Part shown: in pieces, positions 18,428 through 33,194 of the stretch
How positions within the stretch are numbered: position 1 is the stretch's first letter
Layout of the letters: every line of letters begins with the position of its first letter
NCBI GenBank assembly: GCA_038231275.1
Contig: JBBRLQ010000006.1
Span: 128,001 to 192,000, forward strand
From: Polyangiales bacterium
Lineage (GTDB): Bacteria > Myxococcota_A > Polyangia > Polyangiales > Polyangiaceae
Direction of reading: 5' to 3'
Length of the DNA stretch: 64,000 bases
Translations under genes and position numbers: made by a program
Notes under the pieces: generated by a model
The model's database searches: none
Told to the model about the DNA's origin: nothing
What the model saw: the letters and a program-made list of their open reading frames with translations, nothing else

Positions 18428-19381
18428 GTGCGTTCTCCGCTCCTCTGCCGCCTCTCGATCTGGGGGATCTTGCTCGCCTCTTCGGGGTGGTCGACGCGCC
18501 TCCTCGCGGAGGAGCCCACGCCCGAAGCACGTGTCCGTGCGCAGCTGCGCTTCTCGGACGGAGAGGCGGCGTACAAGCGCGGCGATTACCGCGCGGCAGC
18601 CGAGGCGTTCGACGCCGCGTACCGGGAGATTCACCACCACGTCCCTTTGATCAACGCCGCGCGCGCCTGGGCGAGGACGGGCGACAACGCACGGGCGGCC
18701 AACGCGTACGATCGCTTCCTCGACGAGGCACCCGCGCAGGATCCCGATCGGGCTACCGCGACGGCGTGGCTCAAGGAGCAATCTCCGGCGCTCGGCCAGC
18801 TCCACATCACCGGCGACGCGTTCGATCGGATCAAGGTCGACGGCGTCGTGGTCGACCGGGCGCGCATCTTCGTCGCGCCCGGCGTGCACGAAATCGAGGG
18901 GACGAAGGGATCACGCGCCGCCCGACGCAGCGAAAAGGTGGGCGCGGGCGAAGAAGTGCACGTGCGCCTCGAGCTCGCGCCGAGCGCCACACCCGCCGAC
19001 CCTCCCCACGCCGCGCCGACGCCTCCGCCCGACGCCGCGTCACCCCCGACCACTTCGCCGAGCGCGCCGCCCCGCCGCGGCGTCTCCCCGATCGTCGTCG
19101 CGATCGGCGGCGGCCTCACCGCGCTCGTCGGCGGGCTCGCGATCGCCTCGGGCGCCGACACCATCGCGTACAAGCACGGCACCTTCGCCGGCAACGAGAA
19201 CCCCGACACGCTCGGTGACGGCGTCTACCGCGAGCGCCGCACGAACGTCCTCCTCGGCGCGACGATCGGCCTCTTCGCGTTGACCGGCGCGGCGGCGCTC
19301 TTCCTCGTCGACTGGCGCGGAAACGGTACGCTCGTCGGTGCGGCAGGACCTGGCGGCGTCGCCGTCTCGGGAGCGTTCTGA
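18428..19381 (+). CDS. TPR/PEGA-type exported protein
   Basis: Signal peptide, TPR-like helices (YRAAAEAFDAAY), PEGA-like VDG..PGVHEI, C-terminal hydrophobic segments. Confidence 0.75.
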   Translation: MRSPLLCRLSIWGILLASSGWSTRLLAEEPTPEARVRAQLRFSDGEAAYKRGDYRAAAEAFDAAYREIHHHVPLINAARAWARTGDNARAANAYDRFLDEAPAQDPDRATATAWLKEQSPALGQLHITGDAFDRIKVDGVVVDRARIFVAPGVHEIEGTKGSRAARRSEKVGAGEEVHVRLELAPSATPADPPHAAPTPPPDAASPPTTSPSAPPRRGVSPIVVAIGGGLTALVGGLAIASGADTIAYKHGTFAGNENPDTLGDGVYRERRTNVLLGATIGLFALTGAAALFLVDWRGNGTLVGAAGPGGVAVSGAF

Positions 19382-20799
19382 TGACCGCGACCCCCCGCCA
19401 ACGGATCGGATCCTACGAGCTCCTCGTCGAGCTCGCCTCGGGCGGCGTCGGCACCGTCGACATCGCGCTCCAGCGCGGCGCGGCAGGCTTCGAGCGCCTC
19501 GTGGTGGTGAAGCGCGTCCACCGCTTCCTCCTCAAGAACAAGGACTCGTACGCGATGTTCCGCGACGAGGCGCGCCTCGCGTCGAGCATTCGCCATCCGA
19601 ACGTCGTGCCGGTCGTCGACGTGGTCGAGCTCGACGGCGAGCTCCTCTTGGTGATGGATTACGTCGAGGGCGTGTCGCTCAGCACGCTCCGCAAGGCGTA
19701 CACCGACGCGGGCTCGAGCTTGCCGGCGCCGATCGCGTCGCGCATCCTCTCCGATGTCCTGTCGGGCCTCCACGGCGCCCACGAGGCCGCCGATTTGCGG
19801 GGAAAAAAGCTCGAAATCGTGCACCGCGACGTGAGCCCGCAGAACGTGCTCGTGGGCATCGACGGCGTCGCGCGCGTGATCGATTTCGGCATCGCGAAGG
19901 CGGTCGGGCGGCTCACCGAGACGCAGAGCGGCCTCATCAAAGGGAAGTTCGCGTACATGTCGCCCGAGCAGGTCGAGTCGACGGACCTCGATCGACGGAG
20001 CGACGTCTTCTCGGCCGCGGTCGTCCTGCACGAGGCGCTCACCGGCCAGCGACTGTTCCAAGCCGAGAGCGACATCGCGACGCTGCGTAAGGTGGTCAAG
20101 GGAGAGATCCCCGATCCGTCGTCGCTCGTCTCCGGAGTGCCCCCGGCGATCGACGCGGCGCTCCGCATCGCCCTGGCGCGCGATCGCGAGCAGCGCTTCG
20201 CGACGGCGCTCGCGTTCCAGAGCGCGCTCGAGTCGGCGGCGCCGCCGGCCCCCTGGCGTGACGTCGCAGAGGCGGTGCTCCGGATGTGCGGCGTCGAGCT
20301 CGAGGGGCGGCAGGCGCAGCTCGCGACGGCCCTCGGCGCAGACGCGCAGCGCGTCACGGCGCTTCCACCGAGCGAGCCGGCGAGCGTCCGTGTGCTCGCG
20401 CCGACCGAGGGCGACACACGCGTTGCGGCAACGGCGGACGTGGCGCGCGCGCTGCGCCCTCGATCGACCGCGTGGGTCATCGTCCCGCTGGCCGTCGCGA
20501 CGCTCGGTGCGGGGCTCTTCTTGGCGTGGCCGCGCGGCGGGACTGCGGTTCGCACGACGCCGCCCCCGGAGGTCCCACCGGCGCCGCCGCCCAGCGCGAT
20601 GGCCCTCGCCTCGACGACGACGACGTCCGATCCGCCTCCGATCCCGACCGCTTCTCCGCCCGACGCGGCGCCGCCACCGTCGCCCGATCGCACGGGGCGC
20701 ACGCGCGGTCCGAAGACCCCGCCGCCGCCGGGCGGCACGAAGCCGGGGGGAAACGGCGACGACTTGCGCCACGACTTCGACGCCGGACGCCCCTTCTGA
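19381..20799 (+). CDS. Ser/Thr protein kinase
   Basis: VVVKR, HRDVSPQN, DFG, GKFAYMSPEQ; TM segment and Pro-rich tail. Confidence 0.95.
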   Translation: MTATPRQRIGSYELLVELASGGVGTVDIALQRGAAGFERLVVVKRVHRFLLKNKDSYAMFRDEARLASSIRHPNVVPVVDVVELDGELLLVMDYVEGVSLSTLRKAYTDAGSSLPAPIASRILSDVLSGLHGAHEAADLRGKKLEIVHRDVSPQNVLVGIDGVARVIDFGIAKAVGRLTETQSGLIKGKFAYMSPEQVESTDLDRRSDVFSAAVVLHEALTGQRLFQAESDIATLRKVVKGEIPDPSSLVSGVPPAIDAALRIALARDREQRFATALAFQSALESAAPPAPWRDVAEAVLRMCGVELEGRQAQLATALGADAQRVTALPPSEPASVRVLAPTEGDTRVAATADVARALRPRSTAWVIVPLAVATLGAGLFLAWPRGGTAVRTTPPPEVPPAPPPSAMALASTTTTSDPPPIPTASPPDAAPPPSPDRTGRTRGPKTPPPPGGTKPGGNGDDLRHDFDAGRPF

Positions 20800-21866: not shown

Positions 21867-23171
21867 TCACCCCTTCGCGAGGCCGTATTTTCGCAGGAAC
21901 GCGCGCACGTGGTGGCGTTCGATGCCGCTGCGGCGCGCCATCTCGCTGACGTTGCCCGTGCACTGATCGGAGAGCGCGCCGAAGTAGTCGCGCTCCCATC
22001 CGTGCACCGCCTTCTTCTTGGCGGCGGCGAACGCGGTGACCGGAAAGCGCGCGCCTTCGGGCTCGGCGCGGGTCAGGGCGAACACGTCGTCGATCGCCTC
22101 GGGCGTGTCGGCGAGCGTGACGGCGACGGACGCGACGTTGACGAGCTCGCGCACGTTGCCCGGCCAGTCGTAGGTGTCCATGCGCCGCTCGATCCAGTCG
22201 TAGACCGCGCTGGCGTGCTCGGGCCGGCCGGCGCGCGTGCACACATCCTGAACGAGCTCGGCGATGTCACTTCGCCTCTCGCGAAGGGGCGGCAGCTCGA
22301 CGCGGACCTGCGCGATGCGGAAGTAGAGGTCGCTGCGGAAGCGATCGGCGTTCATCTCTGCGGAGAGATCGCGTCGCGTGGCGGCGACGATGCGCACGTC
22401 CATCGGCTCGAAGGCGGAGCCCCCGACGCGCTTCACCTGACGCTCGGCGAGCGCGCGGAGGAGCTTGGGCTGGAGATCGATCGGAAGCTCCCCGAGCTCG
22501 TCGAGGAAGAGCGTGCCGCCGTCGGCCTCGCGCAATGCGCCGTTGCGACGCTCGGTCGCGCCGGTGAACGAGCCCTTCTCGTGGCCGAAGAGGATGCTCT
22601 CGGCCAACGTCGGAGGGATCGAGCCGCAGTCGACGACGACGAACGGCCCTTTGCTGCGCGGGCTTCCGTCGTGCAGCGCGCGCGCGGCGAGCTCTTTGCC
22701 GGTGCCAGTCTCCCCGAGGACCAGGACGCTGAGCGGCGTCGGCGCGACGCGCTCGAGGACACCGAACACGCGGCGCATCTTGGGCGAGCTGCCGACGAGC
22801 GGCCCGAAGCGATCGATGAGCTCCGCCTCGACGCGCTTGGTGGCCGCGGCGGGCTCCACGGTGACCGACGGCCCTCCCACGACGATCTCGGTGGGAGCAG
22901 TCACGAGCCCCTCGGTCACGCGGAACGTCCCGACGCGCGTACCGTTGGTGCTGCCCAGATCGCGCACGAGGATTCCGTCGTGCACCGCGCGCAGCTCGCA
23001 GTGGAACGCGCTCACACGACGATCGTCGAGGACCAAGTTGGCGCCGGGATCGCGCCCGATCACGACGGGGTCGACGTCGATCGCGACGCTGCGTCCGTCG
23101 CTCGCGCGCACGACGCCGCCGCGTACGGTCCAGTGCAACTGCCGCGCGACCGTGGTGGCGACACCGCTCAT
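21867..23171 (-). CDS. FHA-domain sigma54-dependent enhancer-binding protein
   Basis: FHA ([13 protein letters not shown]), [29 protein letters not shown], Fis HTH. Confidence 0.95.
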
Positions 23172-23392: not shown

Positions 23393-24250
23393 ATGAAGAC
23401 CACCTTCACCACCGCTTCGGTTCTTTCCCTCCTCGCTTTGGCGCTCGGCTCCGGCTGCGCGGTCAAGAGCACCTCCACCAACTCGACGACGGGCAGCGGC
23501 TCTGACGCCGTCGATCAAGGCTCCGACGTCAACGACGCCGAGGGCAGCGCCGAGTCGCTCGGGTCGTCGCTCGTCGGGGGCACGAGCGGATCGCTGCACG
23601 TCGCCTCCGCCGGCGAGATGACGATGCACGGCGGGACCCTCCAGCTCGCCGACGTCGGCGCCGAGGCGAAGGGCTTCTACAGCCCCGCCGGCTGCCTCAC
23701 CGTCGCCGCGGACCTGACGAAGAGCAGCGCGAAGTACACCTTCAACGACTGCACCGGCCCGTGGGGCATCCTCCACCTCACCGGCGAGGTCGACGTGACG
23801 TGGTCGTCGAGCGGGGCGAACCAGATCACGATCAACTACTCGGCGACCGCCCTCAAGGTGAACCACGCCACGATCGACTGGACAGCGACGGCCAACGTCA
23901 CCGGCAACGGCGGCGCGCGCGACATGATCTGGGACGGAAAATTCTCCGGCACGACCGCCCACGGCCGCGCGTTCCAGCGCACCAACCACAAGGAGTACAA
24001 GTGGACGGTGGGCCAGGCGTGCTTGAGCGTCTCCGGGACGTCGGACGGCACGGTCACCGGTCACGAGCTCAAGACCGAGGTGAAGAGCTTCTCGATCTGC
24101 GCGGGCGGCTGCCCGGAGGCTGGCAGCGAGATCACGATCACCGACGTGACGACCAGCAAGGTCTACGACGTGAAGTGGAACGCCGGCAGCGCGACGTACA
24201 CCGATCCGGCGGGCAACAGCGTCACGTACACGCCACTCTGCGCGCGCTGA
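23393..24250 (+). CDS. Lipoprotein (Ser/Thr-rich, predicted beta-rich)
   Basis: Lipobox-like GSGC; six mature-domain Cys. Confidence 0.85.
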   Translation: MKTTFTTASVLSLLALALGSGCAVKSTSTNSTTGSGSDAVDQGSDVNDAEGSAESLGSSLVGGTSGSLHVASAGEMTMHGGTLQLADVGAEAKGFYSPAGCLTVAADLTKSSAKYTFNDCTGPWGILHLTGEVDVTWSSSGANQITINYSATALKVNHATIDWTATANVTGNGGARDMIWDGKFSGTTAHGRAFQRTNHKEYKWTVGQACLSVSGTSDGTVTGHELKTEVKSFSICAGGCPEAGSEITITDVTTSKVYDVKWNAGSATYTDPAGNSVTYTPLCAR

Positions 24251-24568
24251 CGAAGAGCCTTCGACGGCGCCCCGTTCCGAGCGCAGACGGGGCGCTCGGG
24301 AGGCGCGGGACGCGGCACGGCAGCGGCTCCCGGTCGAGCGAGCGCGTGCGGTAGTGCGAGGCTTTTAACCAGCTCCCAAATCGCCGCATCGGACGAGGCG
24401 CGCCGGCAGCTTGCCCGCGTCACGGAGCGCCTCGACGACCTTCTCGCTCAGGCGAATGCGCGCACGTAAAAGAGGGGCGCCGACGGCGGCAAAGGCCTCC
24501 GAGCGCGGACGACGACCGTCGCGTCGCGGAAGTGGCCGGCATACAGCTCTTCGGCGTGGCTGCGTTTC

Positions 24569-24721
24569 TCACGCGGCGATTCGTCGTGCCCGGCGCGCTG
24601 GGGATGATTTTTCGTGCACGGGATGGGGATGATCCTCCACCACACGCTTCGATGGTTCGAGGTCGGTCGCGGCGAGAAGGGCAACGAGAACGGGTCCCTC
24701 GCAGAACTGCAGCGGTTCCAT
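24569..24721 (-). CDS. Possible small protein (50 aa)
   Basis: MEPLQFCEGPVLVALLAATDLE...RRARRIAA fills an otherwise empty region; weak codon support. Confidence 0.3.
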   Translation of the reverse strand: MEPLQFCEGPVLVALLAATDLEPSKRVVEDHPHPVHEKSSPARRARRIAA

Positions 24722-24810
24722 CGGGTTCCACGGTTGAGCAACCCCCGCGGAACCTCTCCCTGCGCGCGGGAGTTGCGCTCGGGACCCGGTCCGATCCACA
24801 TTACGGGCGC

Positions 24811-25203
24811 ATGCCTCGGGCGCTCCTCCGTCTCGTCGTCGCCTTCGCCGCCGCGCTCACCGCGTGGCTGGTCGCGGCGCCGGCGTGGGCGAGCATGTCG
24901 GCCCCGCAGTGCGACCACCGCGGCGCGATCACGTTCGCGCCGCCGCCGCAGCTCCAGCCGATGCAGCAGTCGATCGACGCGACCGACGACGACATGACGT
25001 GCGTGGAGAAGATGCTCGCGGCCGAAGGTGTCCACCAGGGCAACGCGCCGCCCCCGTCGCCGAGCGCGACAGAGCCCGTGGCCGCCCCTGCGTTGCCGAT
25101 CCTCCCTGCGTTCGCGCCGCGCGCGTTGCCGCCCGAGCTCGACGTGGATGCGCGCGCCCCTTGTGGCGTGCGCACGTCCCTCGAACGTCCCCCTCGAGCC
25201 TGA
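24811..25203 (+). CDS. Secreted leader protein ending ERPPRA (candidate translation-arrest peptide)
   Basis: Sec signal (..APAWA), three Cys, Pro-rich linker, C-terminal RPPR; upstream of the DsbA genes. Confidence 0.7.
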   Translation: MPRALLRLVVAFAAALTAWLVAAPAWASMSAPQCDHRGAITFAPPPQLQPMQQSIDATDDDMTCVEKMLAAEGVHQGNAPPPSPSATEPVAAPALPILPAFAPRALPPELDVDARAPCGVRTSLERPPRA

Positions 25204-25355
25204 GCGCCTCGAGCGTTCGCCCAGTTTTTTAGGCCTTCGCGCGCCCGTCGCGCGCGGACGGCACGTCGTGCGCCCTCGCGTGCGCGGCGTCGCCGAGCCG
25301 CACGCGCCGTCGCGCAAGAATTCGCAGTACCTCTCTCGAACCAAGGAAATCGTCC

Positions 25356-27383
25356 ATGTCCAAAGAATCCAAGAACGACGCCGACGCGTCGCCGAGCAGC
25401 TTCGAAGGCGCCGGCGGGATGAACACGGGGGTGGCCATCGTCGGCTTCATCCTCTGCTTCATCTCGGGCGCCGGCCTCATGTGGGGCTACGACTCGCACC
25501 GCCTCAAGAAGGGCGAAATCGGCGCGGACAGCACCGCGTCGGCCGGCGGCGGCGGCAACTGGAGCGACGAGGACTCCCCCGTCCCCGTCTCCAGCAAAGA
25601 TCCGATGTTCGGCAAGCGTGACGCCCCCGTCACGATCGTCGTCTTCTCGGACTTCCAGTGCCCCTTCTGCTCACGCGGTGAGGCGACCGTCGACCAGGTC
25701 AAGACGACCTACGGCGACAAGGTCCGCGTCATCTGGAAGAACGAGCCCCTCAGCTTCCACCCGAACGCAAAGCCGGCCGCCGAGGCCGCGCAGGGCGTCT
25801 TCGCGATGAAGGGCGCCGAGGCTTTTTGGAAGTTCCACGACCTCGCGTTCAAGAACCAGCAGACGCTGAGCGACGACAACTACGTCGCGTGGGCAGGTCA
25901 GGCCGGCGTGACGGACATCGCCAAGTTCAAGGCGGGTCTCGCCGCGCACACGTGGGCGGACAAGGTCGAGAAGGACCACGCCATCGCGCAGAAGGCGGGC
26001 GTCAACGGGACGCCGGCGTTCTTCATCAACGGCTCGCTCCTCTCGGGCGCGCAGCCGTTCGACAAGTTCAAGACCGTCATCGACCAGGAGCTCGACAAGG
26101 CCAAGGCGAAGATCGCGTCCGGCACGCCCAAGGACAAGGTCTACGTGGCGATGTCGAACGAGAACAAGAAGGCCGCTCCGGCCGCCGCGCCGAAGGACGA
26201 GGACGAGGGTGAGAAGGAAGACACCAAGACGGTCTTCAAGGTCCCCGTCGGCCAGAGCCCGCAGCTCGGCAACGCGAACGCGCTCGTCACGATCGTCGAG
26301 TTCAGCGATTTCCAGTGCCCGTACTGCAAGCGCACCGAAGACCAGCTGAAGAAGATCCGCGAGACCTACGGCGACAAGGTCCGCTTCGTGTGGAAGGAGG
26401 AGCCTCTTCCGTTCCACCCGCGCGCCGAGCCGGCCGCGGAGCTCGGACGCGCCGCGCGCGCCGAGAAGGGCGACAAGGGCTGGTGGGCCGCGCACGACGC
26501 GATGTTCGATTCGCAGCCGAAGCTCGACGACGCGGATCTCGAGGCGGTCGCCGCCAAGATCGGCATCGACAAGGGCAAGGCGATGGACGCCATCAAGACC
26601 CACAAATACAAGAAGGAGATCGACGCGGACTCCGAGCTCGCGGACGATCTCCAGGCCAGCGGCACGCCGCACTTCTTCATCAACGGACGCCGCCTCGTCG
26701 GCGCGCAGCCGTTCGAGAAGTTCCAGAAGATCATCGACGAGGAGATCAAGCACGCGCAAGACGTGCTTGCCAAGGGCGTCGCTCCGGCGAAGCTCTACGA
26801 GGAGCTCGTCAAGGACGGCAAGGGCGCGCCCGAGCCGGAGAAGAAGACCGTCGTCCTCGCGCAGAACTCGCCGGCGAAGGGCAACACCAAGTCGAAGATC
26901 ATCATCCAGGAGTTCAGTGATTTCCAGTGCCCGTTCTGCTCGAAGGTCGAGGACACGGTCAACCAGGTCATGAAGGACTACGGCGACAAGGTGCAGCTCC
27001 AGTGGCGCAACCTCCCGCTCCCCATGCACGCCGACGCCCCGATGGCGGCGCAGGCGGCGCAAGAGGCCTACAAGCAGAAGGGCGCCGACGCCTTCTGGAA
27101 GATGCACGACAAGCTCTACGGCGGACAGAAGAACCCCGAAGGCTTGAAGCGCCCGGCGATCGAGGGCTACGCGCAGGAGCTTGGCCTCAACATGGACAAG
27201 TTCAAGACGGCGCTCGACACCAGCTCGCACAAGGCCGAGATCGAGGTCGACGAGAAGGCCGCCAAGGACGCCGGCATCAGCGGCACCCCGGCGTTCGTGA
27301 TCAACGGGTACTTCATCAGCGGCGCGCAGCCGTACCCGAAGTTCAAGAAGCTGATTGAGCGCGCGATGGCAGAGGCGAAGTAA
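25356..27383 (+). CDS. Membrane-anchored DsbA-family protein with three thioredoxin-fold domains
   Basis: FSDFQCPFC, FSDFQCPYC and FSDFQCPFC, each followed by GTP.F.ING..GAQP; N-terminal TM. Confidence 0.93.
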   Translation: MSKESKNDADASPSSFEGAGGMNTGVAIVGFILCFISGAGLMWGYDSHRLKKGEIGADSTASAGGGGNWSDEDSPVPVSSKDPMFGKRDAPVTIVVFSDFQCPFCSRGEATVDQVKTTYGDKVRVIWKNEPLSFHPNAKPAAEAAQGVFAMKGAEAFWKFHDLAFKNQQTLSDDNYVAWAGQAGVTDIAKFKAGLAAHTWADKVEKDHAIAQKAGVNGTPAFFINGSLLSGAQPFDKFKTVIDQELDKAKAKIASGTPKDKVYVAMSNENKKAAPAAAPKDEDEGEKEDTKTVFKVPVGQSPQLGNANALVTIVEFSDFQCPYCKRTEDQLKKIRETYGDKVRFVWKEEPLPFHPRAEPAAELGRAARAEKGDKGWWAAHDAMFDSQPKLDDADLEAVAAKIGIDKGKAMDAIKTHKYKKEIDADSELADDLQASGTPHFFINGRRLVGAQPFEKFQKIIDEEIKHAQDVLAKGVAPAKLYEELVKDGKGAPEPEKKTVVLAQNSPAKGNTKSKIIIQEFSDFQCPFCSKVEDTVNQVMKDYGDKVQLQWRNLPLPMHADAPMAAQAAQEAYKQKGADAFWKMHDKLYGGQKNPEGLKRPAIEGYAQELGLNMDKFKTALDTSSHKAEIEVDEKAAKDAGISGTPAFVINGYFISGAQPYPKFKKLIERAMAEAK

Positions 27384-27457: not shown

Positions 27458-29413
27458 ATGCGGTCCCCCTTCGTCGTCTCGCTCCTGCTCGCTGCAACCG
27501 CATGCGCCGCCACGAAACCGCCCGCGTCCGCCGCTGCCGTCGCCGACCCGAACGCCAAAGTCACCTCGACCCCGGTCGTCAAAATCGACCCCGACTCCGC
27601 GACCGCCTCCGACGAAGACGACACCCCGATCCCCGTCTCCAAGGACGATCCCACCTGGGGCAACCGCTCCGCCCTCGTCACGATCGTCGAGATGACCGAT
27701 CTCCAGTGCCCCTACTGCGCGCGCGCCGACAAGAGCGTCGCCCGCCTCCGCGAAGCGTACGGCCCCGAGCAGCTCCGCGTCGTCTGGAAGCACCACCCGC
27801 TCCCCTTCCACGCCAACGCGCGCCCCGCCGCCGAATGGGCCCAAGGCACCTTCGCGCTCGGTGGCGCCCAGGCGTTCCTCTGCTTCGAACAAAAAGCGAT
27901 GGACGACCAGTCGCGCCTCGCCCCCGACGCGTACGCGATGTGGACCAAAGAGTGCGGCGTCGACGCCGGCTCGGTGCGCGCAGGGGTCGATTCCCACCGC
28001 TGGTCCGACGTCATCGATCGCGGCATCGCCCTCTCCTCCAAGCTCGGCGCGTCCGGCACGCCGACCTTTTACGTGAACGGCGCCAAGATCACAGGCGCGC
28101 AGCCGTACGAAAAATTCGTCGAGGTCGTCGACGGACCAATCGCGATCGCCAAGCTCCTCCTCTCGAAGGGTGCGCCGCGCGACAAGCTCTACGTCATCGC
28201 GTCGACGGTGAACCAGGAGGCGGAGAAAGAGGAGGCCGATGAGCCGGTCGCCGACACCAAGACGGTCTTCAAGGTCCCGATCGGCCAGAGCCCCGTGCGC
28301 GGCCCCGCCGCGGCGCCGGTGACCATCGTCGAGTTTTCGGATTTTCAGTGCCCGTTCTGCAAGCGCTCCGAGGCCACGGTCGTCGAGCTTCGGAAAAAAT
28401 ACGGCGACAAGATCCGCGTCGTCTGGAAAGACGAGCCCCTCCCGTTCCATCCGCGCGCCGAGCCGGCCGCCGAGGTCGCGCGCGAGGCCCGTGCCCAGCG
28501 CGGCGACGCGGGGTTCTGGGACGCGCACGACGCGCTCTTCGACGTACAGCCGAAGCTCGAGGACGAGGACCTCGCCGGCGTCGCGCAGAAGCTCGGCATG
28601 AACGTCGGCAAGGTGAAGGACGCGATCAAGGCGCACCGCCACAAGAAGGGCATCGACGCCGACGCCGACCTCGCCGACGACCTCGACGCCACCGGCACCC
28701 CGCACTTCTTCATCAACGGTCGTCGCCTCGTCGGCGCGCAGCCGATCGACAAATTCACGGCGATCATCGACGAGGAGCTGAAGCACGCCGAAGATCTGCG
28801 CGGCCGAGGCATCGCCGCCGCGAAGGTCTACGAAGAGATCATCAAGGACGGCAAAGGACCCAAGCCGCTCGAGAAGCGCACGCTCGCCGCCGCGCCCGAC
28901 GCCCCGTTCCGCGGACCTGCCGGCGCGCCGATCGTCATCCAGGAGTTCTCGGATTTCCAGTGCCCGTTCTGCGCGCGCGCCGAGACGACGCTGACCGATC
29001 TCGAGAAGGCGTACCCCGGCAAGGTGAAGATCATTTGGCGCCAGATGCCGCTGTCCTTCCACGAGAACGCGCACCTCGCGGCCGAGGCGTCGATGGAGGC
29101 CTGGAAGCAAAAGGGCAACGCCGGCTTCTGGAAGATGCACGATCGCATGTACGACAACCAGAAGGAGCTCTCCCGCGAGGCGCTCGATCGCTACGCGAAG
29201 GACATCGGCCTCGACATGCAAAAGTGGGCGGCGGCGCTCGACGGCGGGACGCACAAGGCCGCCGTCGACAAGGACGCGAAGCTCGGGAGCGACGCCGGCG
29301 TGCAAGGAACCCCCGCGTTCTTCATCAACGGGTACTTCTTGAGCGGAGCCCAACCGCTGCCGAAGTTCCGCAAGGCCGTGGAGCAGGCCCTGGTCGACGC
29401 GGCGAAACACTGA
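27458..29413 (+). CDS. Lipoprotein DsbA-family paralog with three thioredoxin-fold domains
   Basis: Lipobox-like ATAC; CPYC/CPFC/CPFC; GTP motifs; long stretches near-identical to the upstream gene. Confidence 0.93.
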   Translation: MRSPFVVSLLLAATACAATKPPASAAAVADPNAKVTSTPVVKIDPDSATASDEDDTPIPVSKDDPTWGNRSALVTIVEMTDLQCPYCARADKSVARLREAYGPEQLRVVWKHHPLPFHANARPAAEWAQGTFALGGAQAFLCFEQKAMDDQSRLAPDAYAMWTKECGVDAGSVRAGVDSHRWSDVIDRGIALSSKLGASGTPTFYVNGAKITGAQPYEKFVEVVDGPIAIAKLLLSKGAPRDKLYVIASTVNQEAEKEEADEPVADTKTVFKVPIGQSPVRGPAAAPVTIVEFSDFQCPFCKRSEATVVELRKKYGDKIRVVWKDEPLPFHPRAEPAAEVAREARAQRGDAGFWDAHDALFDVQPKLEDEDLAGVAQKLGMNVGKVKDAIKAHRHKKGIDADADLADDLDATGTPHFFINGRRLVGAQPIDKFTAIIDEELKHAEDLRGRGIAAAKVYEEIIKDGKGPKPLEKRTLAAAPDAPFRGPAGAPIVIQEFSDFQCPFCARAETTLTDLEKAYPGKVKIIWRQMPLSFHENAHLAAEASMEAWKQKGNAGFWKMHDRMYDNQKELSREALDRYAKDIGLDMQKWAAALDGGTHKAAVDKDAKLGSDAGVQGTPAFFINGYFLSGAQPLPKFRKAVEQALVDAAKH

Positions 29414-32118: not shown

Positions 32119-32523
32119 GTGACGGGCGCGTCGGGATATCTCATCGAGACGTTCGTGACCTTGGTCGCGGTGTGCCTCATCGCGTTCGTCGTCCTCTATG
32201 GGGCGCGGCGGCTCGGCATCGGACGCGCGCAGGGGCCGATTCATCTGATGGGGCACCTGCCGCTCGACGGGCGGCGCTCGGTCTACCTCGTGAAGGTCGG
32301 CGATCAGGTGCTGGTCGTCGGCGTCGCCGAGGGAGGCATGACGAAGCTCGGTGAGGTCCCCGCGGCGTCTCTTCCCGCGATGACGATCCCGTCGGGCGCC
32401 CCGTTCGCGACGATCCTCGCGCGCGCGTTGATGCGAAAGCCCGTCTCGGCAACGACTCCCGCGACACCAACGCCGACGACGAGCGACGCCGCGAAATCGG
32501 AACGCGGAGAGGGGCACGCATGA
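32119..32523 (+). CDS. fliO: FliO/FliZ-like export-gate chaperone
   Basis: N-terminal TM, LPLDGRRSVYLVKVGDQVLVVGV; coupled to a fliP-like gene. Confidence 0.75.
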   Translation: MTGASGYLIETFVTLVAVCLIAFVVLYGARRLGIGRAQGPIHLMGHLPLDGRRSVYLVKVGDQVLVVGVAEGGMTKLGEVPAASLPAMTIPSGAPFATILARALMRKPVSATTPATPTPTTSDAAKSERGEGHA

Positions 32524-33194
32524 AGGCGGACGATCTCCTCGGCCGACCGATCGCGCTCGTCGTCGCGCTCGCGCTCGTCTCGCTCCTTCCCTTCGCGTTC
32601 ATGAGCGTGACGGCGTTCGTGAAGATCTCGACGGTGCTCCAGATCGTGCGCTCGGCGATCGGCGCGCAGAGCGTGCCGTCGAGCACCGTGGTCATGGCCC
32701 TCTCGGCCGCGCTGACGCTCCTCGCGATGGCGCCGGTCGGGCAGAAGATCATCGCGCGCGCGTCGCCGATGTTCGCGGGGAAGGAGGTGCCGGAGACCAT
32801 CGCCATCGTGCGCGGCACCGTGGACGCCGTGCGCGAGCCGATGCGCGACTTCATGCGCGCCAACGCGAGCACCAAGGAGAAAGGGCGATTTCTCATGGTC
32901 GCCCGCGACGCGCGACCCGAAGCCGAACGGCCGCAGATCAAAGACGATGACCTCACCGTGCTCATCCCCGCGTTCGTCGTCACCGAGCTCACCGAGGCGT
33001 TCGCAGTCGGCTTCCTCATCTTCTTGCCGTTCCTCGTCGTGGATCTCGTCGTCGCCAACGTCCTCCTCGCGCTGGGAATGCAGATGCTCAGCCCGACGCA
33101 AGTGAGCATGCCGTTCAAGCTGCTCTTGTTCGTCGCCATCGATGGGTGGGGGCTCTTGGCGCAAGCGCTCGTCGCCGGCTACGCCAACACGTGA
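32520..33194 (+). CDS. sctR: Type III export gate protein FliP/SctR
   Basis: TAFVKIS.VL..RSAIG.Q..P, IPAF..TEL..AF..GF..FLPF, LGMQM..P..SMPFKLLLFV..DGW. Confidence 0.92.
   Translation: MKADDLLGRPIALVVALALVSLLPFAFMSVTAFVKISTVLQIVRSAIGAQSVPSSTVVMALSAALTLLAMAPVGQKIIARASPMFAGKEVPETIAIVRGTVDAVREPMRDFMRANASTKEKGRFLMVARDARPEAERPQIKDDDLTVLIPAFVVTELTEAFAVGFLIFLPFLVVDLVVANVLLALGMQMLSPTQVSMPFKLLLFVAIDGWGLLAQALVAGYANT

What the first reader, a model, noticed from the sequence alone, without database searches (positions are those of the whole stretch)
24811..25356. Candidate ribosome-arrest leader (signal peptide, Cys, C-terminal RPPR) controlling a DsbA locus
Seen: a 130-aa ORF with a Sec signal, three Cys and a Pro-rich spacer ends L-E-R-P-P-R-A-stop, 152 nt upstream of the first DsbA gene. 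Its last codons (GAA CGT CCC CCT CGA) are atypical for this GC3-rich genome. They form the 5' arm of a hairpin (CGAACG 25182-87 with CGTTCG 25214-19; CTCGAG 25193-98 with 25208-13), followed 5 nt later by T6 (25225-30). A second long hairpin spans about 25257-25311. Known: secreted arrest peptides ending in RAPP/RxPP-like motifs (SecM, ApdA/ApdP, CutF/CruR of DUF2946) couple export or metal status to downstream expression. Inference: this may be a monitoring substrate that reports export or disulfide-folding capacity and tunes DsbA output, a pairing I do not know to be described. RPPR is a variant of the known motifs, and the stem-to-U gap is non-canonical for a terminator.
Basis: partly seen in the sequence, partly recalled or inferred. 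Interest (0 to 1): 0.8.

Follow-up and report, generated by a model that had tools for sequence, protein, structure and literature searches.

The report
Conserved RPPR leader peptide before DsbA
A small secreted peptide gene that always sits in front of disulfide-bond enzyme genes in one group of soil bacteria has the hallmarks of a ribosome-stalling sensor, which would let the cell tune these enzymes to its need for them, though stalling itself is untested.

Summary
Window 24811-25203 (+) encodes a real 130-aa protein with a signal peptide that ends LERPPRA-stop, 152 nt before a membrane-anchored triple-DsbA gene.

It is a large, unnamed family: 360 clusters at 50% identity. In 76 of 76 genomic loci a multi-DsbA gene follows on the same strand. 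The Pro-Pro pair is invariant in all 76, flanked by R (63 of 76, otherwise H or E) and R (68 of 76), with 0-5 residues before the stop. The codons vary synonymously, so selection acts on the peptide.

Two conserved Cys lie a fixed 94 and 65 residues before the second Pro, while the sequence between is free. Nine other families of the class carry unrelated signal-plus-Cys leaders that also end in RPP before DsbA genes.

The best reading (0.55) is a ribosome-arrest or pausing leader that reports export or disulfide formation.

Three results weigh against it:
- RPPR is not avoided in this genome.
- E. coli rules class it as a weak staller.
- No Shine-Dalgarno-masking structure is predicted.

The closest precedent is the RAPP/RGPP arrest peptides reported upstream of DsbA and thioredoxin genes in 2025. 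I file this as a new variant of a known kind.

The parts
24773..24802 (+). Promoter-like element: TTGCGC (24773-78), 18-nt spacer, CACATT (24797-802), ending 8 nt before the leader ATG. There is no Shine-Dalgarno, so the mRNA is probably leaderless.
   Evidence: TTGCnn-18 nt-CAnnnT, ending 6-13 nt before the start codon, is present in 26 of 30 loci. An SD-like 4-mer precedes 2 of 30 leader starts, against 23 of 30 dsbA starts. The function is inferred.
24811..25203 (+). Leader ORF, 130 aa (P0001), a member of a large unnamed family.
   Evidence: GC3 is 0.89. It matches 80 of 201 genomes of its family and 360 clusters at 50% identity. It has no Pfam or NCBIfam match.
24811..24891 (+). Sec-type signal peptide (residues 1-27, ending A-W-A).
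   Evidence: The sequence shows it. AF2 gives a helix at residues 2-27 with pLDDT 90-95. It is conserved in the alignment. No signal-peptide predictor was run.
24901..24954 (+). Conserved mature N-terminal motif A-P-x-C-D-x-R-G-A-x-x-x-A-P-x-P-x-L, including Cys34 (codon 24910-12).
   Evidence: P32, C34, D35, R37, A39, P46 and L48 are invariant in 30 sequences.
25000..25002 (+). Cys64, the second conserved Cys, 64 residues before Pro128.
   Evidence: C64 is at least 90% conserved. The C2-to-P2 distance is 63-70 in 29 of 30 loci, with a median of 65 in 171 further proteins.
25165..25200 (+). Conserved C-terminal block G-V-R-x-x-L-E-R-P-P-R-A. The candidate arrest core E-R-P-P-R is at 25183-25197.
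   Evidence: In 76 loci, PP is present in 76 of 76, the residue before is R in 63, H in 11 and E in 2, and the residue after is R in 68. RPPR occurs in 178 of 185 proteins. The codons vary synonymously.
25201..25230 (+). Stop codon, overlapping terminator-like hairpin (25201-25219) and T6 (25225-30).
   Evidence: Called by the consensus scan. It is kept, with the T-run directly at the stem, in sister species L002, but is not seen in the other 28 loci. It is not more stable than shuffles.
25236..25318 (+). Long G+C-rich hairpin in the intergenic region.
   Evidence: Present in the minimum-energy fold. A comparable hairpin occurs in L002. Whole-region z = -0.87. Its function is unknown.
25322..25355 (+). 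dsbA 5' UTR: TCGCAGT, a pyrimidine tract, and the SD AAGGAAA (25343-49).
   Evidence: Similar T[CT]GCA[GA]T plus pyrimidine tract plus SD arrangements are seen by eye in many of the 30 loci. The SD is predicted to be about half unpaired.
25356..27383 (+). dsbA1: 675 aa, an N-terminal membrane anchor and three DsbA/Thioredoxin_4 domains (CPFC, CPYC, CPFC).
   Evidence: Pfam Thioredoxin_4 at 5e-78 in 3 stretches, and DSBA at 5e-69.
27458..29413 (+). dsbA2: 651 aa, a lipoprotein-like signal (LLAATAC) and three DsbA domains.
   Evidence: Pfam Thioredoxin_4 at 1e-66 in 3 stretches. NCBIfam NF041057. The lipobox was read by eye.

Best explanation
The ORF is the first cistron of a leader-dsbA1-dsbA2 operon. 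It most likely encodes a cis-acting regulatory nascent peptide, not a working protein.

Proposed steps:
1. A sigma-70-like promoter ends 8 nt before the ATG and gives a probably leaderless mRNA. (Inferred.)
2. The signal peptide takes the nascent chain to SecYEG during translation. (Inferred.)
3. The ribosome pauses or arrests on the invariant R-P-P. The likely register is Pro128 in the P site and Arg129 in the A site, the same register as R-x-P in the RAPP/RGPP arrest peptides. (Inferred.)
4. At that moment Cys64 is 64 residues, and Cys34 is 94 residues, from the peptidyl-transferase centre. About 50 residues are enough to reach the periplasmic mouth of SecYEG, so both Cys are just outside. 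(The distances are shown. Their meaning is inferred.)
5. DsbA-dependent oxidation of the Cys pair, or simply ongoing export, pulls the chain and ends the pause. If oxidising or export capacity is short, the pause lasts longer. (Inferred.)
6. A long pause raises expression of the downstream DsbA genes. How is not resolved. In the window and its sister species the stalled ribosome would cover the 5' arm of a terminator-like hairpin at the stop codon. In other genera a block of Rho loading or mRNA stabilisation is more likely. Unmasking of the Shine-Dalgarno is not supported.
For: - Family size: the leader matches 80 of 201 genomes of the window's family and 360 clusters at 50% identity in the representative library.
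- Synteny: a multi-DsbA gene follows on the same strand in 30 of 30 loci and in 46 of 46 further loci, with a gap of 84-409 nt in the first 30. In metagenome contigs it follows in 28 of the 30 loci with at least 300 nt of DNA downstream.
- Motif in 76 loci: PP is present in 76 of 76. The residue before is R in 63, H in 11 and E in 2. The residue after is R in 68, Q in 4, T in 2, S in 1 and Y in 1. The tail is 0-5 residues.
- Motif in proteins: of 185 proteins from two searches, 178 have RPPR within the last 12 residues.
- Peptide-level selection: each of the four motif codons uses 3-5 synonymous codons across 30 loci.
- Geometry: C1 to P2 is 91-103 residues (median 94). C2 to P2 is 63-70 (median 65) in 29 of 30 loci. 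The sequence between is free, and the stretch between the signal and C1 varies by 0-50 residues.
- Convergent design elsewhere in the class: 10 of 15 further DsbA gene starts are preceded by an unrelated ORF with a signal peptide and Cys that ends xRPP[RNS] plus 0-8 residues. Two more such ORFs lie beside DsbA genes. The last Cys is 54-57 residues before P2 in 10 of these 12.
- No fold: AF2 gives pTM 0.25, with only the signal helix and one short helix. There is no Pfam or NCBIfam family.
- Rare codons at the motif: 52 of 150 codons are A/T-ending, against 552 of 3696 elsewhere in the leaders. In the window P = 0.0025.
- Literature, R-x-P core: the core R-x-P with Pro in the P site defines the RAPP-like arrest peptides. 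Ala-to-Pro at x keeps much of the arrest in ApdP, and R, Q and H alternate at the first position in the 'RQH' family (PMC12992588 section 7; PMC10987492 passages).
- Literature, geometry and force: about 50 residues span the distance from the peptidyl-transferase centre to the periplasmic exit, and DsbA-dependent disulfide formation exerts force on a SecM arrest peptide (PMC7513700 passages).
Against: - No stalling data exist, and none can be made with these tools.
- RPPR is not avoided in this genome's proxy proteome: 72 observed, 52 expected from composition, and 80-103 for its permutations. RGPP, by contrast, is depleted at 21 against 58 expected.
- The E. coli-based rules of Qi et al. 2018 class ERPPR, DRPPR, FRPPR, YRPPR and YHPPR as weak polyproline stallers (S5 table passages).
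- In ApdA and ApdP the A-site residue must be Pro, and Gly-to-Arg abolishes ApcA arrest (PMC7897499 passages). Arg in the A site therefore does not fit the known RAPP mechanism.
- The dsbA Shine-Dalgarno is predicted to be about as open with the stalled-ribosome footprint forced unpaired as without it (mean 0.56 in both cases). Almost none of its pairing partners lie in that footprint.
- No structure is shared by the 30 loci just after the stop: z < -1.64 in 10 of 30, median -0.58.
- C/G > 1 in 22 of 30 gaps, but the leader coding sequence shows the same bias, so a Rho site is not shown.
- A promoter for dsbA inside the gap is not excluded.
- One metagenome lineage (L149 and L150) has the leader in front of an M13 peptidase gene instead.
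Confidence: 0.55

Rival explanations
1. The ORF encodes an ordinary small periplasmic protein that works together with the DsbA proteins, for example as a dedicated substrate, adaptor or redox partner. The conserved RPPR tail acts in the periplasm, for example as a binding or turnover motif. Co-transcription is the only link to dsbA, and there is no translational sensing.
For: The ORF has a signal peptide and two conserved Cys, and it is always next to DsbA genes. RPPR is classed as a weak staller and is not avoided in the genome. No RNA switch is predicted.
Against: No fold is predicted (pTM 0.25). Only about 18 N-terminal and 10 C-terminal residues are conserved. The motif is not anchored to the C-terminal carboxylate, because the tail is 0-8 variable residues. 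The spacer between the Cys and PP keeps its length while its sequence is free. In other families the whole protein is replaced, yet signal, Cys, a spacer of about 55 residues and RPP remain.
Confidence: 0.22
2. The leader does pause at RPP, but it senses a thiophilic metal such as copper through its Cys, as CutF does with CxxxC. It then switches on DsbA-like proteins that repair metal-damaged disulfides. It does not sense DsbA or export capacity.
For: In the leaders of other families the last two Cys form C-x4-5-C, 54-62 residues before RPP. That resembles the CxxxC plus proline-rich tail of CutF (PMC9973294 passages; abstract of 10.1101/2025.02.05.636593). RAPP/RGPP leaders are common before copper genes (PMC12992588 section 13).
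Against: In the window's own family the Cys are 26-34 residues apart, which is not a usual metal site. There is no DUF2946 match. No copper gene is seen beside the operon in the window.
Confidence: 0.1
3. The leader and dsbA are separate transcription units. The hairpin plus T6 after the stop is simply the leader gene's terminator, and dsbA has its own promoter in the 152-nt gap.
For: A terminator-like site lies at 25201-25219 with a T-run and is kept in the sister species. The gaps are long at 84-409 nt. A conserved T[CT]GCA[GA]T element lies about 30 nt before many dsbA starts.
Against: The hairpin plus T-run is seen in only 2 of 30 loci, and its stability is at chance level. Universal same-strand adjacency (76 of 76) and the conserved promoter in front of the leader (26 of 30) suggest one unit. 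The scan found no sigma-70-like promoter in 24300-25700, but it also missed the leader's own promoter-like element.
Confidence: 0.1

Closest known systems
RAPP/RGPP ('RQH') arrest peptides: ApdA, ApdP, ApcA, CruR and the Streptomyces lividans set, including SLIV_27375 upstream of a thioredoxin-domain gene (Sakiyama 2021; Fujiwara 2024, 2025)
   Same: These are small secreted or membrane proteins. The conserved Arg-x-Pro core lies a few residues before the stop. They sit upstream of, and on the same strand as, the gene they are thought to control. The first position alternates between R and H. SLIV_27375 also carries two conserved Cys. DsbA-family genes are listed among downstream genes of RAPP/RGPP ORFs.
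   Different: The motif here is [ED]-R-P-P-R, with Pro instead of Ala or Gly and Arg instead of Pro at the presumed A site. That change abolishes arrest in ApdA, ApdP and ApcA. The four-residue motif is not avoided in the genome. There is no sequence similarity outside the motif. SLIV_27375 has four membrane helices, not a cleavable signal. Arrest has not been tested here.
CutF of Rhodobacter capsulatus and CruR of Bordetella pertussis (DUF2946)
   Same: CutF has a Sec signal, Cys in the exported part and a proline-rich C-terminal stalling motif, and it controls the next gene. CruR has a 162-nt gap and acts through Rho (passages; abstract).
   Different: The leader has no DUF2946 match. CutF melts a stem-loop over the Shine-Dalgarno, and none is predicted here. 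The downstream genes here are DsbA-type, not copper genes.
SecM, VemP and MifM monitoring substrates
   Same: They share the logic: an exported nascent chain whose arrest is ended by pulling force, and which feeds back on a gene of the same pathway.
   Different: The arrest sequences are unrelated. The downstream genes are Sec or YidC parts, not DsbA. Their mechanism rests on unmasking the Shine-Dalgarno. (These statements on SecM, VemP and MifM come from the abstracts listed and from my own knowledge.)
EF-P-dependent polyproline pauses (XPPX)
   Same: The leader has a Pro-Pro pair with charged neighbours.
   Different: Such pauses are short, occur inside ordinary proteins, and are classed as weak for xRPPR. 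They do not explain the position at the stop, the fixed spacer or the synteny.

Membership tests
RAPP-like (RQH) arrest peptides | A small protein with an N-terminal signal peptide or membrane segment | tested here: met
   The signal-like N-terminus is seen in the sequence, is conserved, and gives an AF2 helix at residues 2-27. No dedicated predictor was run.
RAPP-like (RQH) arrest peptides | C-terminal core [R/Q/H]-[A/G]-P-P, with the third residue in the P site and Pro in the A site | tested here: not met
   The core is R-P-P-R (H-P-P-R in 11 of 76 loci). R-x-P fits with x = Pro. The fourth residue is R in 68 of 76 loci and is never Pro.
RAPP-like (RQH) arrest peptides | The motif lies within a few residues of the stop, upstream of and on the same strand as the controlled gene | tested here: met
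   The tail is 0-5 residues in 76 loci. DsbA follows in 76 of 76 loci.
RAPP-like (RQH) arrest peptides | Motif-dependent accumulation of peptidyl-tRNA, or a toeprint | not testable with these tools
   This needs in vitro translation and toeprinting.
RAPP-like (RQH) arrest peptides | The four-residue motif is avoided in the proteome | tested here: not met
   RPPR is 72 observed against 52 expected. RGPP is 21 against 58 expected, in 5054 proxy ORFs of the window's own genome.
CutF/CruR (DUF2946) | A match to Pfam DUF2946 | tested here: not met
   P0001 has no Pfam family at E <= 0.01.
CutF/CruR (DUF2946) | A stem-loop covers the Shine-Dalgarno of the next gene and is opened by the stalled ribosome | tested here: not met
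   The mean unpaired probability of the SD zone is 0.56 with the region left free and 0.56 with the footprint forced open, in 30 loci. This is in silico only.
SecM | The arrest sequence FxxxxWIxxxxGIRAGP | tested here: not met
   It is not present in the 130-aa sequence. The motif is as quoted in PMC12992588 section 7.
Intrinsic terminator or attenuator | A G+C-rich hairpin directly followed by a U-run, conserved in relatives | tested here: inconclusive
   The scan calls 25201-25219 plus the T-run. It is canonical in L002, absent by eye in 28 of 30 loci, and has z = -0.10.
C-terminal sorting signals (MYXO-CTERM, PEP-CTERM and the like; recalled) | A motif followed by a membrane helix and a basic tail | tested here: not met
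   Only 0-8 residues follow the motif.

The most novel reading that the evidence does not exclude
These leaders would be the first monitoring substrates for oxidative protein folding. The nascent, half-exported chain presents a Cys pair to DsbA exactly when the ribosome sits on a new arrest core, R-P-P with Arg (or N, S, Q or T) in the A site. Disulfide formation would release the ribosome, so DsbA synthesis is set by feedback from DsbA activity. The design, a signal peptide, Cys, a spacer of 55-65 residues, RPP and a stop, would have been kept or re-invented across a whole class of bacteria while the rest of the sequence turned over.
Probability: 0.3. Interest if true: 0.85.

Novelty: new variant of a known kind. 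Interest (0 to 1): 0.72.

Why it matters
Known monitoring substrates report on Sec, YidC or copper status. A leader that reports on disulfide-bond formation would extend nascent-chain sensing to oxidative folding.

It would also give a natural force sensor for co-translational disulfide formation, and it would add an arrest core whose A-site residue is not proline.

The family is large, at 360 clusters, and the design is easy to test: a few point mutants, changes of spacer length, DTT, and dsbA mutants.

Even if arrest fails, the family is an unnamed, strictly DsbA-linked gene that annotation pipelines call 'hypothetical'.

Tried and rejected
- **Rfam** on 24000-26000 at E <= 1: no match.
- **Pfam and NCBIfam** on the leader: no match.
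- **Shine-Dalgarno unmasking by the stalled ribosome:** no support in 30 loci.
- **A shared hairpin just after the stop:** none.
- **C over G bias as a sign of a Rho site:** the bias is the same as in the coding part, so it is not decisive.
- **A sigma-54 promoter** at the TCGCAGT element before dsbA: rejected by eye, because there is no GG element at the right distance (sequence).
- **C-terminal sorting signal:** rejected, because no membrane helix follows the motif.
- **RNA evidence:** the two runs found held only small shares. Their contigs lay on short conserved pieces, mostly in dsbA, from relatives. Nothing bridged the leader and the gap, so nothing can be said about transcripts.
- **Near relatives for hairpin covariation:** the metagenome scan with the protein found none. 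The scan with alignment A1 gave 34 loci, all 32-67% identical over their best segments.
- **Protein Atlas:** it did not hold P0001 or P0005.
- my first pattern for the DsbA start in five loci found nothing. I redid it. Two loci fetched (L096, L098) gave no match to my local profile and were dropped before the counts.
- **Complex prediction:** not used, because enzyme-substrate pairs are a poor use of it.
Full report
**What is in the window**

It runs from ATG 24811 to TGA 25201-25203 and encodes 130 aa. The protein has a signal-like N-terminus, Cys at positions 34, 64 and 118, and a Pro-rich middle. It ends L-E-R-P-P-R-A.

The next gene starts at 25356, which is 152 nt downstream. It encodes a 675-aa protein with an N-terminal membrane anchor and three DsbA/Thioredoxin_4 domains. 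A second triple-DsbA gene follows at 27458-29413, and then an outer-membrane beta-barrel ORF.

A consensus scan calls 25201-25219 plus the T-run terminator-like.

The region folds no better than shuffled sequence: z = -0.87 for 25170-25360 and z = -0.10 for 70 nt from the motif onward. Rfam has nothing there.

The rare-codon remark is correct. GAA is 12.8% of this genome's Glu codons, CGT 7.2% and CGA 6.2% of its Arg codons, and CCT 5.9% of its Pro codons. Four of the last seven sense codons end in A or T, against 14 of 130 in the ORF (P = 0.0025).

**The ORF is a real gene and belongs to a large unnamed family**

GC3 is 0.89. A single-sequence search of 41 related genomes found it in 8. A four-sequence profile found it in 80 of 201 genomes of the window's family. 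One homolog carries the source label 'Polyangiaceae bacterium'. A 30-sequence profile found 360 clusters at 50% identity in the representative library, 238 of them at E <= 1e-10. Neither Pfam nor NCBIfam has a model for it.

**The C-terminus is the most conserved part**

The table gives the counts for 76 genomic loci: 30, and 46. Two further loci, L096 and L098, gave no local profile match and were dropped.

| Position | Residues (of 76) |
|---|---|
| Pro-Pro pair | present in 76 |
| Residue before PP | R 63, H 11, E 2 |
| Residue two before PP | E 39, D 22, Y 8, F 5, L 1, S 1 |
| Residue after PP | R 68, Q 4, T 2, S 1, Y 1 |
| Residues before the stop | 0 in 26, 1 in 40, 2 in 8, 3 in 1, 5 in 1 |

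Of 185 proteins returned by two searches, 178 have RPPR within the last 12 residues and four more have RPPQ, RPPK or RPPE. The three exceptions are a 91-aa fragment, one protein that ends at ERPP, and one with a different tail.

These sets were found with profiles that include the motif. Some circularity therefore exists, although most scores rest on the N-terminal half.

The four motif codons use 3 to 5 synonymous codons each across 30 loci. The constraint is therefore on the peptide, not on the RNA. A/T-ending codons are enriched at the five motif codons, 52 of 150 against 552 of 3696 upstream. The loci are related, so this is a trend and not a test.

**Synteny is complete**

A membrane-anchored multi-DsbA gene follows on the same strand in 30 of 30 loci, with a gap of 84-409 nt. 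It also follows in 46 of 46 further loci. These include the second copies in three very large genomes.

In 34 metagenome loci found with the profile, 32 reach the stop codon and all 32 carry the motif. DsbA follows in 28. Two loci have too little DNA downstream to tell. The last two, L149 and L150, carry the same sequence and are followed by an M13 peptidase gene.

**The architecture is that of a sensor peptide, not of a folded protein**

Four things are conserved:
- the signal peptide;
- a short motif right after it, A-P-x-C-D-x-R-G-A...A-P-x-P-x-L;
- a second Cys about 30 residues later;
- the last 12 residues, G-V-R-x-x-[LVI]-[ED]-R-P-P-R.

Everything between is variable. The third Cys of the window protein is not conserved.

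The distances are fixed. From the first Cys to the second Pro there are 91-103 residues (median 94). From the second Cys there are 63-70 (median 65) in 29 of 30 loci. By contrast, the stretch between the signal and the first Cys varies by 0-50 residues. The larger protein set gives the same medians, 95 and 65.

AlphaFold2 with the 30-row alignment gives pTM 0.25 and only the signal helix plus one short helix.

**The same design recurs with unrelated sequences**

In five genomes of the family that the profile had missed, four have an upstream ORF ending VYHPPR, VFRPPRSR, VFRPPRR or VYRPPRN.

In a class-wide sample, DsbA relatives were found in 59 of 61 genomes. I looked at 15 gene starts of membrane-anchored multi-DsbA genes. 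Ten are preceded by an ORF with a signal peptide and several Cys, ending in xRPP[R/N/S] plus 0-8 residues. Five showed none (L105, L128, L132, L137, L139). Two more such ORFs lie beside other DsbA genes (L108, L114). Nine families besides the window's own are involved.

In 10 of these 12 leaders the last Cys lies 54-57 residues before the second Pro, often as C-x4-5-C. I found these ORFs by looking for the motif. My rough estimate of a chance RPP in the last 13 residues of an upstream ORF is a few percent per locus, and chance would not bring a signal peptide and the Cys spacing with it.

**A conserved promoter-like element precedes the leader**

TTGCnn, exactly 18 nt, then CAnnnT, ending 6-13 nt before the start codon, is present in 26 of 30 loci. 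An SD-like 4-mer precedes only 2 of 30 leader starts, against 23 of 30 dsbA starts. The leader is therefore probably translated from a leaderless mRNA and is the first cistron of the unit. This is inferred.

**How a pause would act on dsbA is open**

- The Shine-Dalgarno zone of dsbA is predicted to be about half unpaired whether or not the footprint of a ribosome on RPP is forced open (mean 0.56 both ways). Its few pairing partners do not lie in that footprint.
- The hairpin plus T-run at the stop codon is seen in the window and, in better form, in the sister species, but not in the other 28 loci. In these two a ribosome with Pro128 (25192-94) in the P site would cover the 5' arm (25201-07).
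- The gaps are slightly C-rich, with C/G > 1 in 22 of 30, but so is the leader coding sequence.
- CruR, a RAPP leader with a 162-nt gap, is reported to act through Rho (passage in PMC9973294). That makes a Rho-type coupling a fair guess for the long gaps here.

**Comparison with what is in print**

- Sakiyama 2021 (PMC7897499, passages) and Fujiwara 2024 and 2025 (PMC10987492, passages; PMC12992588, abstract and sections 7, 8, 13, 14) define arrest peptides with an R-A/G-P-P core. The third residue sits in the P site and Pro in the A site.
- In those papers Arg is irreplaceable. Ala can be Gly, and partly Pro, Ser or Asp. R, Q and H alternate at the first position in the 'RQH' family.
- The 2025 paper lists DsbA-family and thioredoxin-domain genes among those downstream of RAPP/RGPP small ORFs. 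It also shows arrest for SLIV_27375, which has four membrane helices and two conserved Cys and lies upstream of a thioredoxin-domain gene. No regulatory test is reported in the sections I read. I did not see its supplementary lists, which may name taxa.
- The present motif aligns as R-(P)-P with Arg in the A-site place. That fits the first three positions and the R/H alternation, but not the fourth.
- Elfageih 2020 (PMC7513700, passages) states that about 50 residues span the distance from the peptidyl-transferase centre to the periplasmic exit of SecYEG. It also shows that DsbA-dependent disulfide formation pulls on a SecM arrest peptide. The 54-65-residue spacers found here match that geometry.
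- Full-text searches found no paper on this family or motif. The terms were 'arrest peptide' with DsbA; 'RPPR' with 'ribosome stalling'; and a five-term search on uORF, DsbA, translation arrest, disulfide and monitoring substrate. The library holds open-access papers and preprints only.

**Evidence against arrest**

- RPPR is not avoided in the proxy proteome of the window's genome: 72 observed, 52 expected, and 80-103 for its permutations. RGPP is depleted at 21 against 58.
- Qi 2018 (PMC5811046, passages and S5 table passages) classes xRPPR and YHPPR as weak stallers in E. coli.
- Arg in the A site abolishes arrest in ApcA, and any non-Pro residue there does so in ApdA and ApdP.

If the peptide stalls, it must therefore do so through its own upstream context (G-V-R-x-x-[LVI]-[ED]), or only on its own ribosomes, or only as a tunable pause.

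**Verdict**

- I put 0.55 on a pausing or arresting regulatory leader that links export or disulfide formation to DsbA synthesis.
- I put 0.22 on an ordinary DsbA-associated periplasmic peptide, 0.10 on a metal-sensing version of the leader, and 0.10 on separate transcription units.
- It is a new variant of a known kind. The logic and the R-x-P core are those of RAPP-like monitoring peptides, and a DsbA link was noted in silico in 2025. The motif, the family, the fixed Cys-to-PP geometry and the class-wide recurrence are not in the papers I could search.

Noticed in passing
window 24773-24802; loci L001-L036: A promoter-like TTGCnn-18 nt-CAnnnT element ends 6-13 nt before the leader start in 26 of 30 loci, and almost none has a Shine-Dalgarno. 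This points to a leaderless mRNA.
   Followed up: partly
L149 111-581 and 802-1776; L150: In one metagenome lineage the leader homolog, which ends LLERPPRAA, is followed by an M13 peptidase gene instead of DsbA. The N-terminus of that gene starts MSKES like the DsbA genes, which suggests a swap of the downstream gene behind a retained leader and 5' end.
   Followed up: partly
rows for G581, G589, G406, G462: Several DsbA-like matches in other genomes of the class contain a single in-frame TGA. The best NCBIfam model for the window's DsbA proteins is a 'thioredoxin-like (seleno)lipoprotein' family. Some of these relatives may be selenoproteins.
   Followed up: no
G088, G144, G180 (L029/L067, L030/L065, L034/L068): Genomes of 12-13.6 Mb carry two leader-DsbA units each, both with the motif and both followed by DsbA.
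   Followed up: partly
window 25322-25339 and the same place in other loci: A T[CT]GCA[GA]T element followed by a pyrimidine tract lies about 20-35 nt before many dsbA start codons (by eye). It is not explained.
   Followed up: no
whole genome G000: RGPP is strongly under-represented in proxy ORFs (21 observed, 58 expected) while RAPP is not (80 observed, 89 expected). The RGPP result agrees with the proteome-wide avoidance reported by Fujiwara 2025.
   Followed up: no
window 32355-33194 (+), 21867-23171 (-), 19219-20799 (+): The neighbours include a FliP-family gene, an FHA-domain sigma-54 activator and a Ser/Thr kinase. In four of the five genomes looked at a kinase-like ORF lies divergently upstream of the leader.
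   Followed up: no
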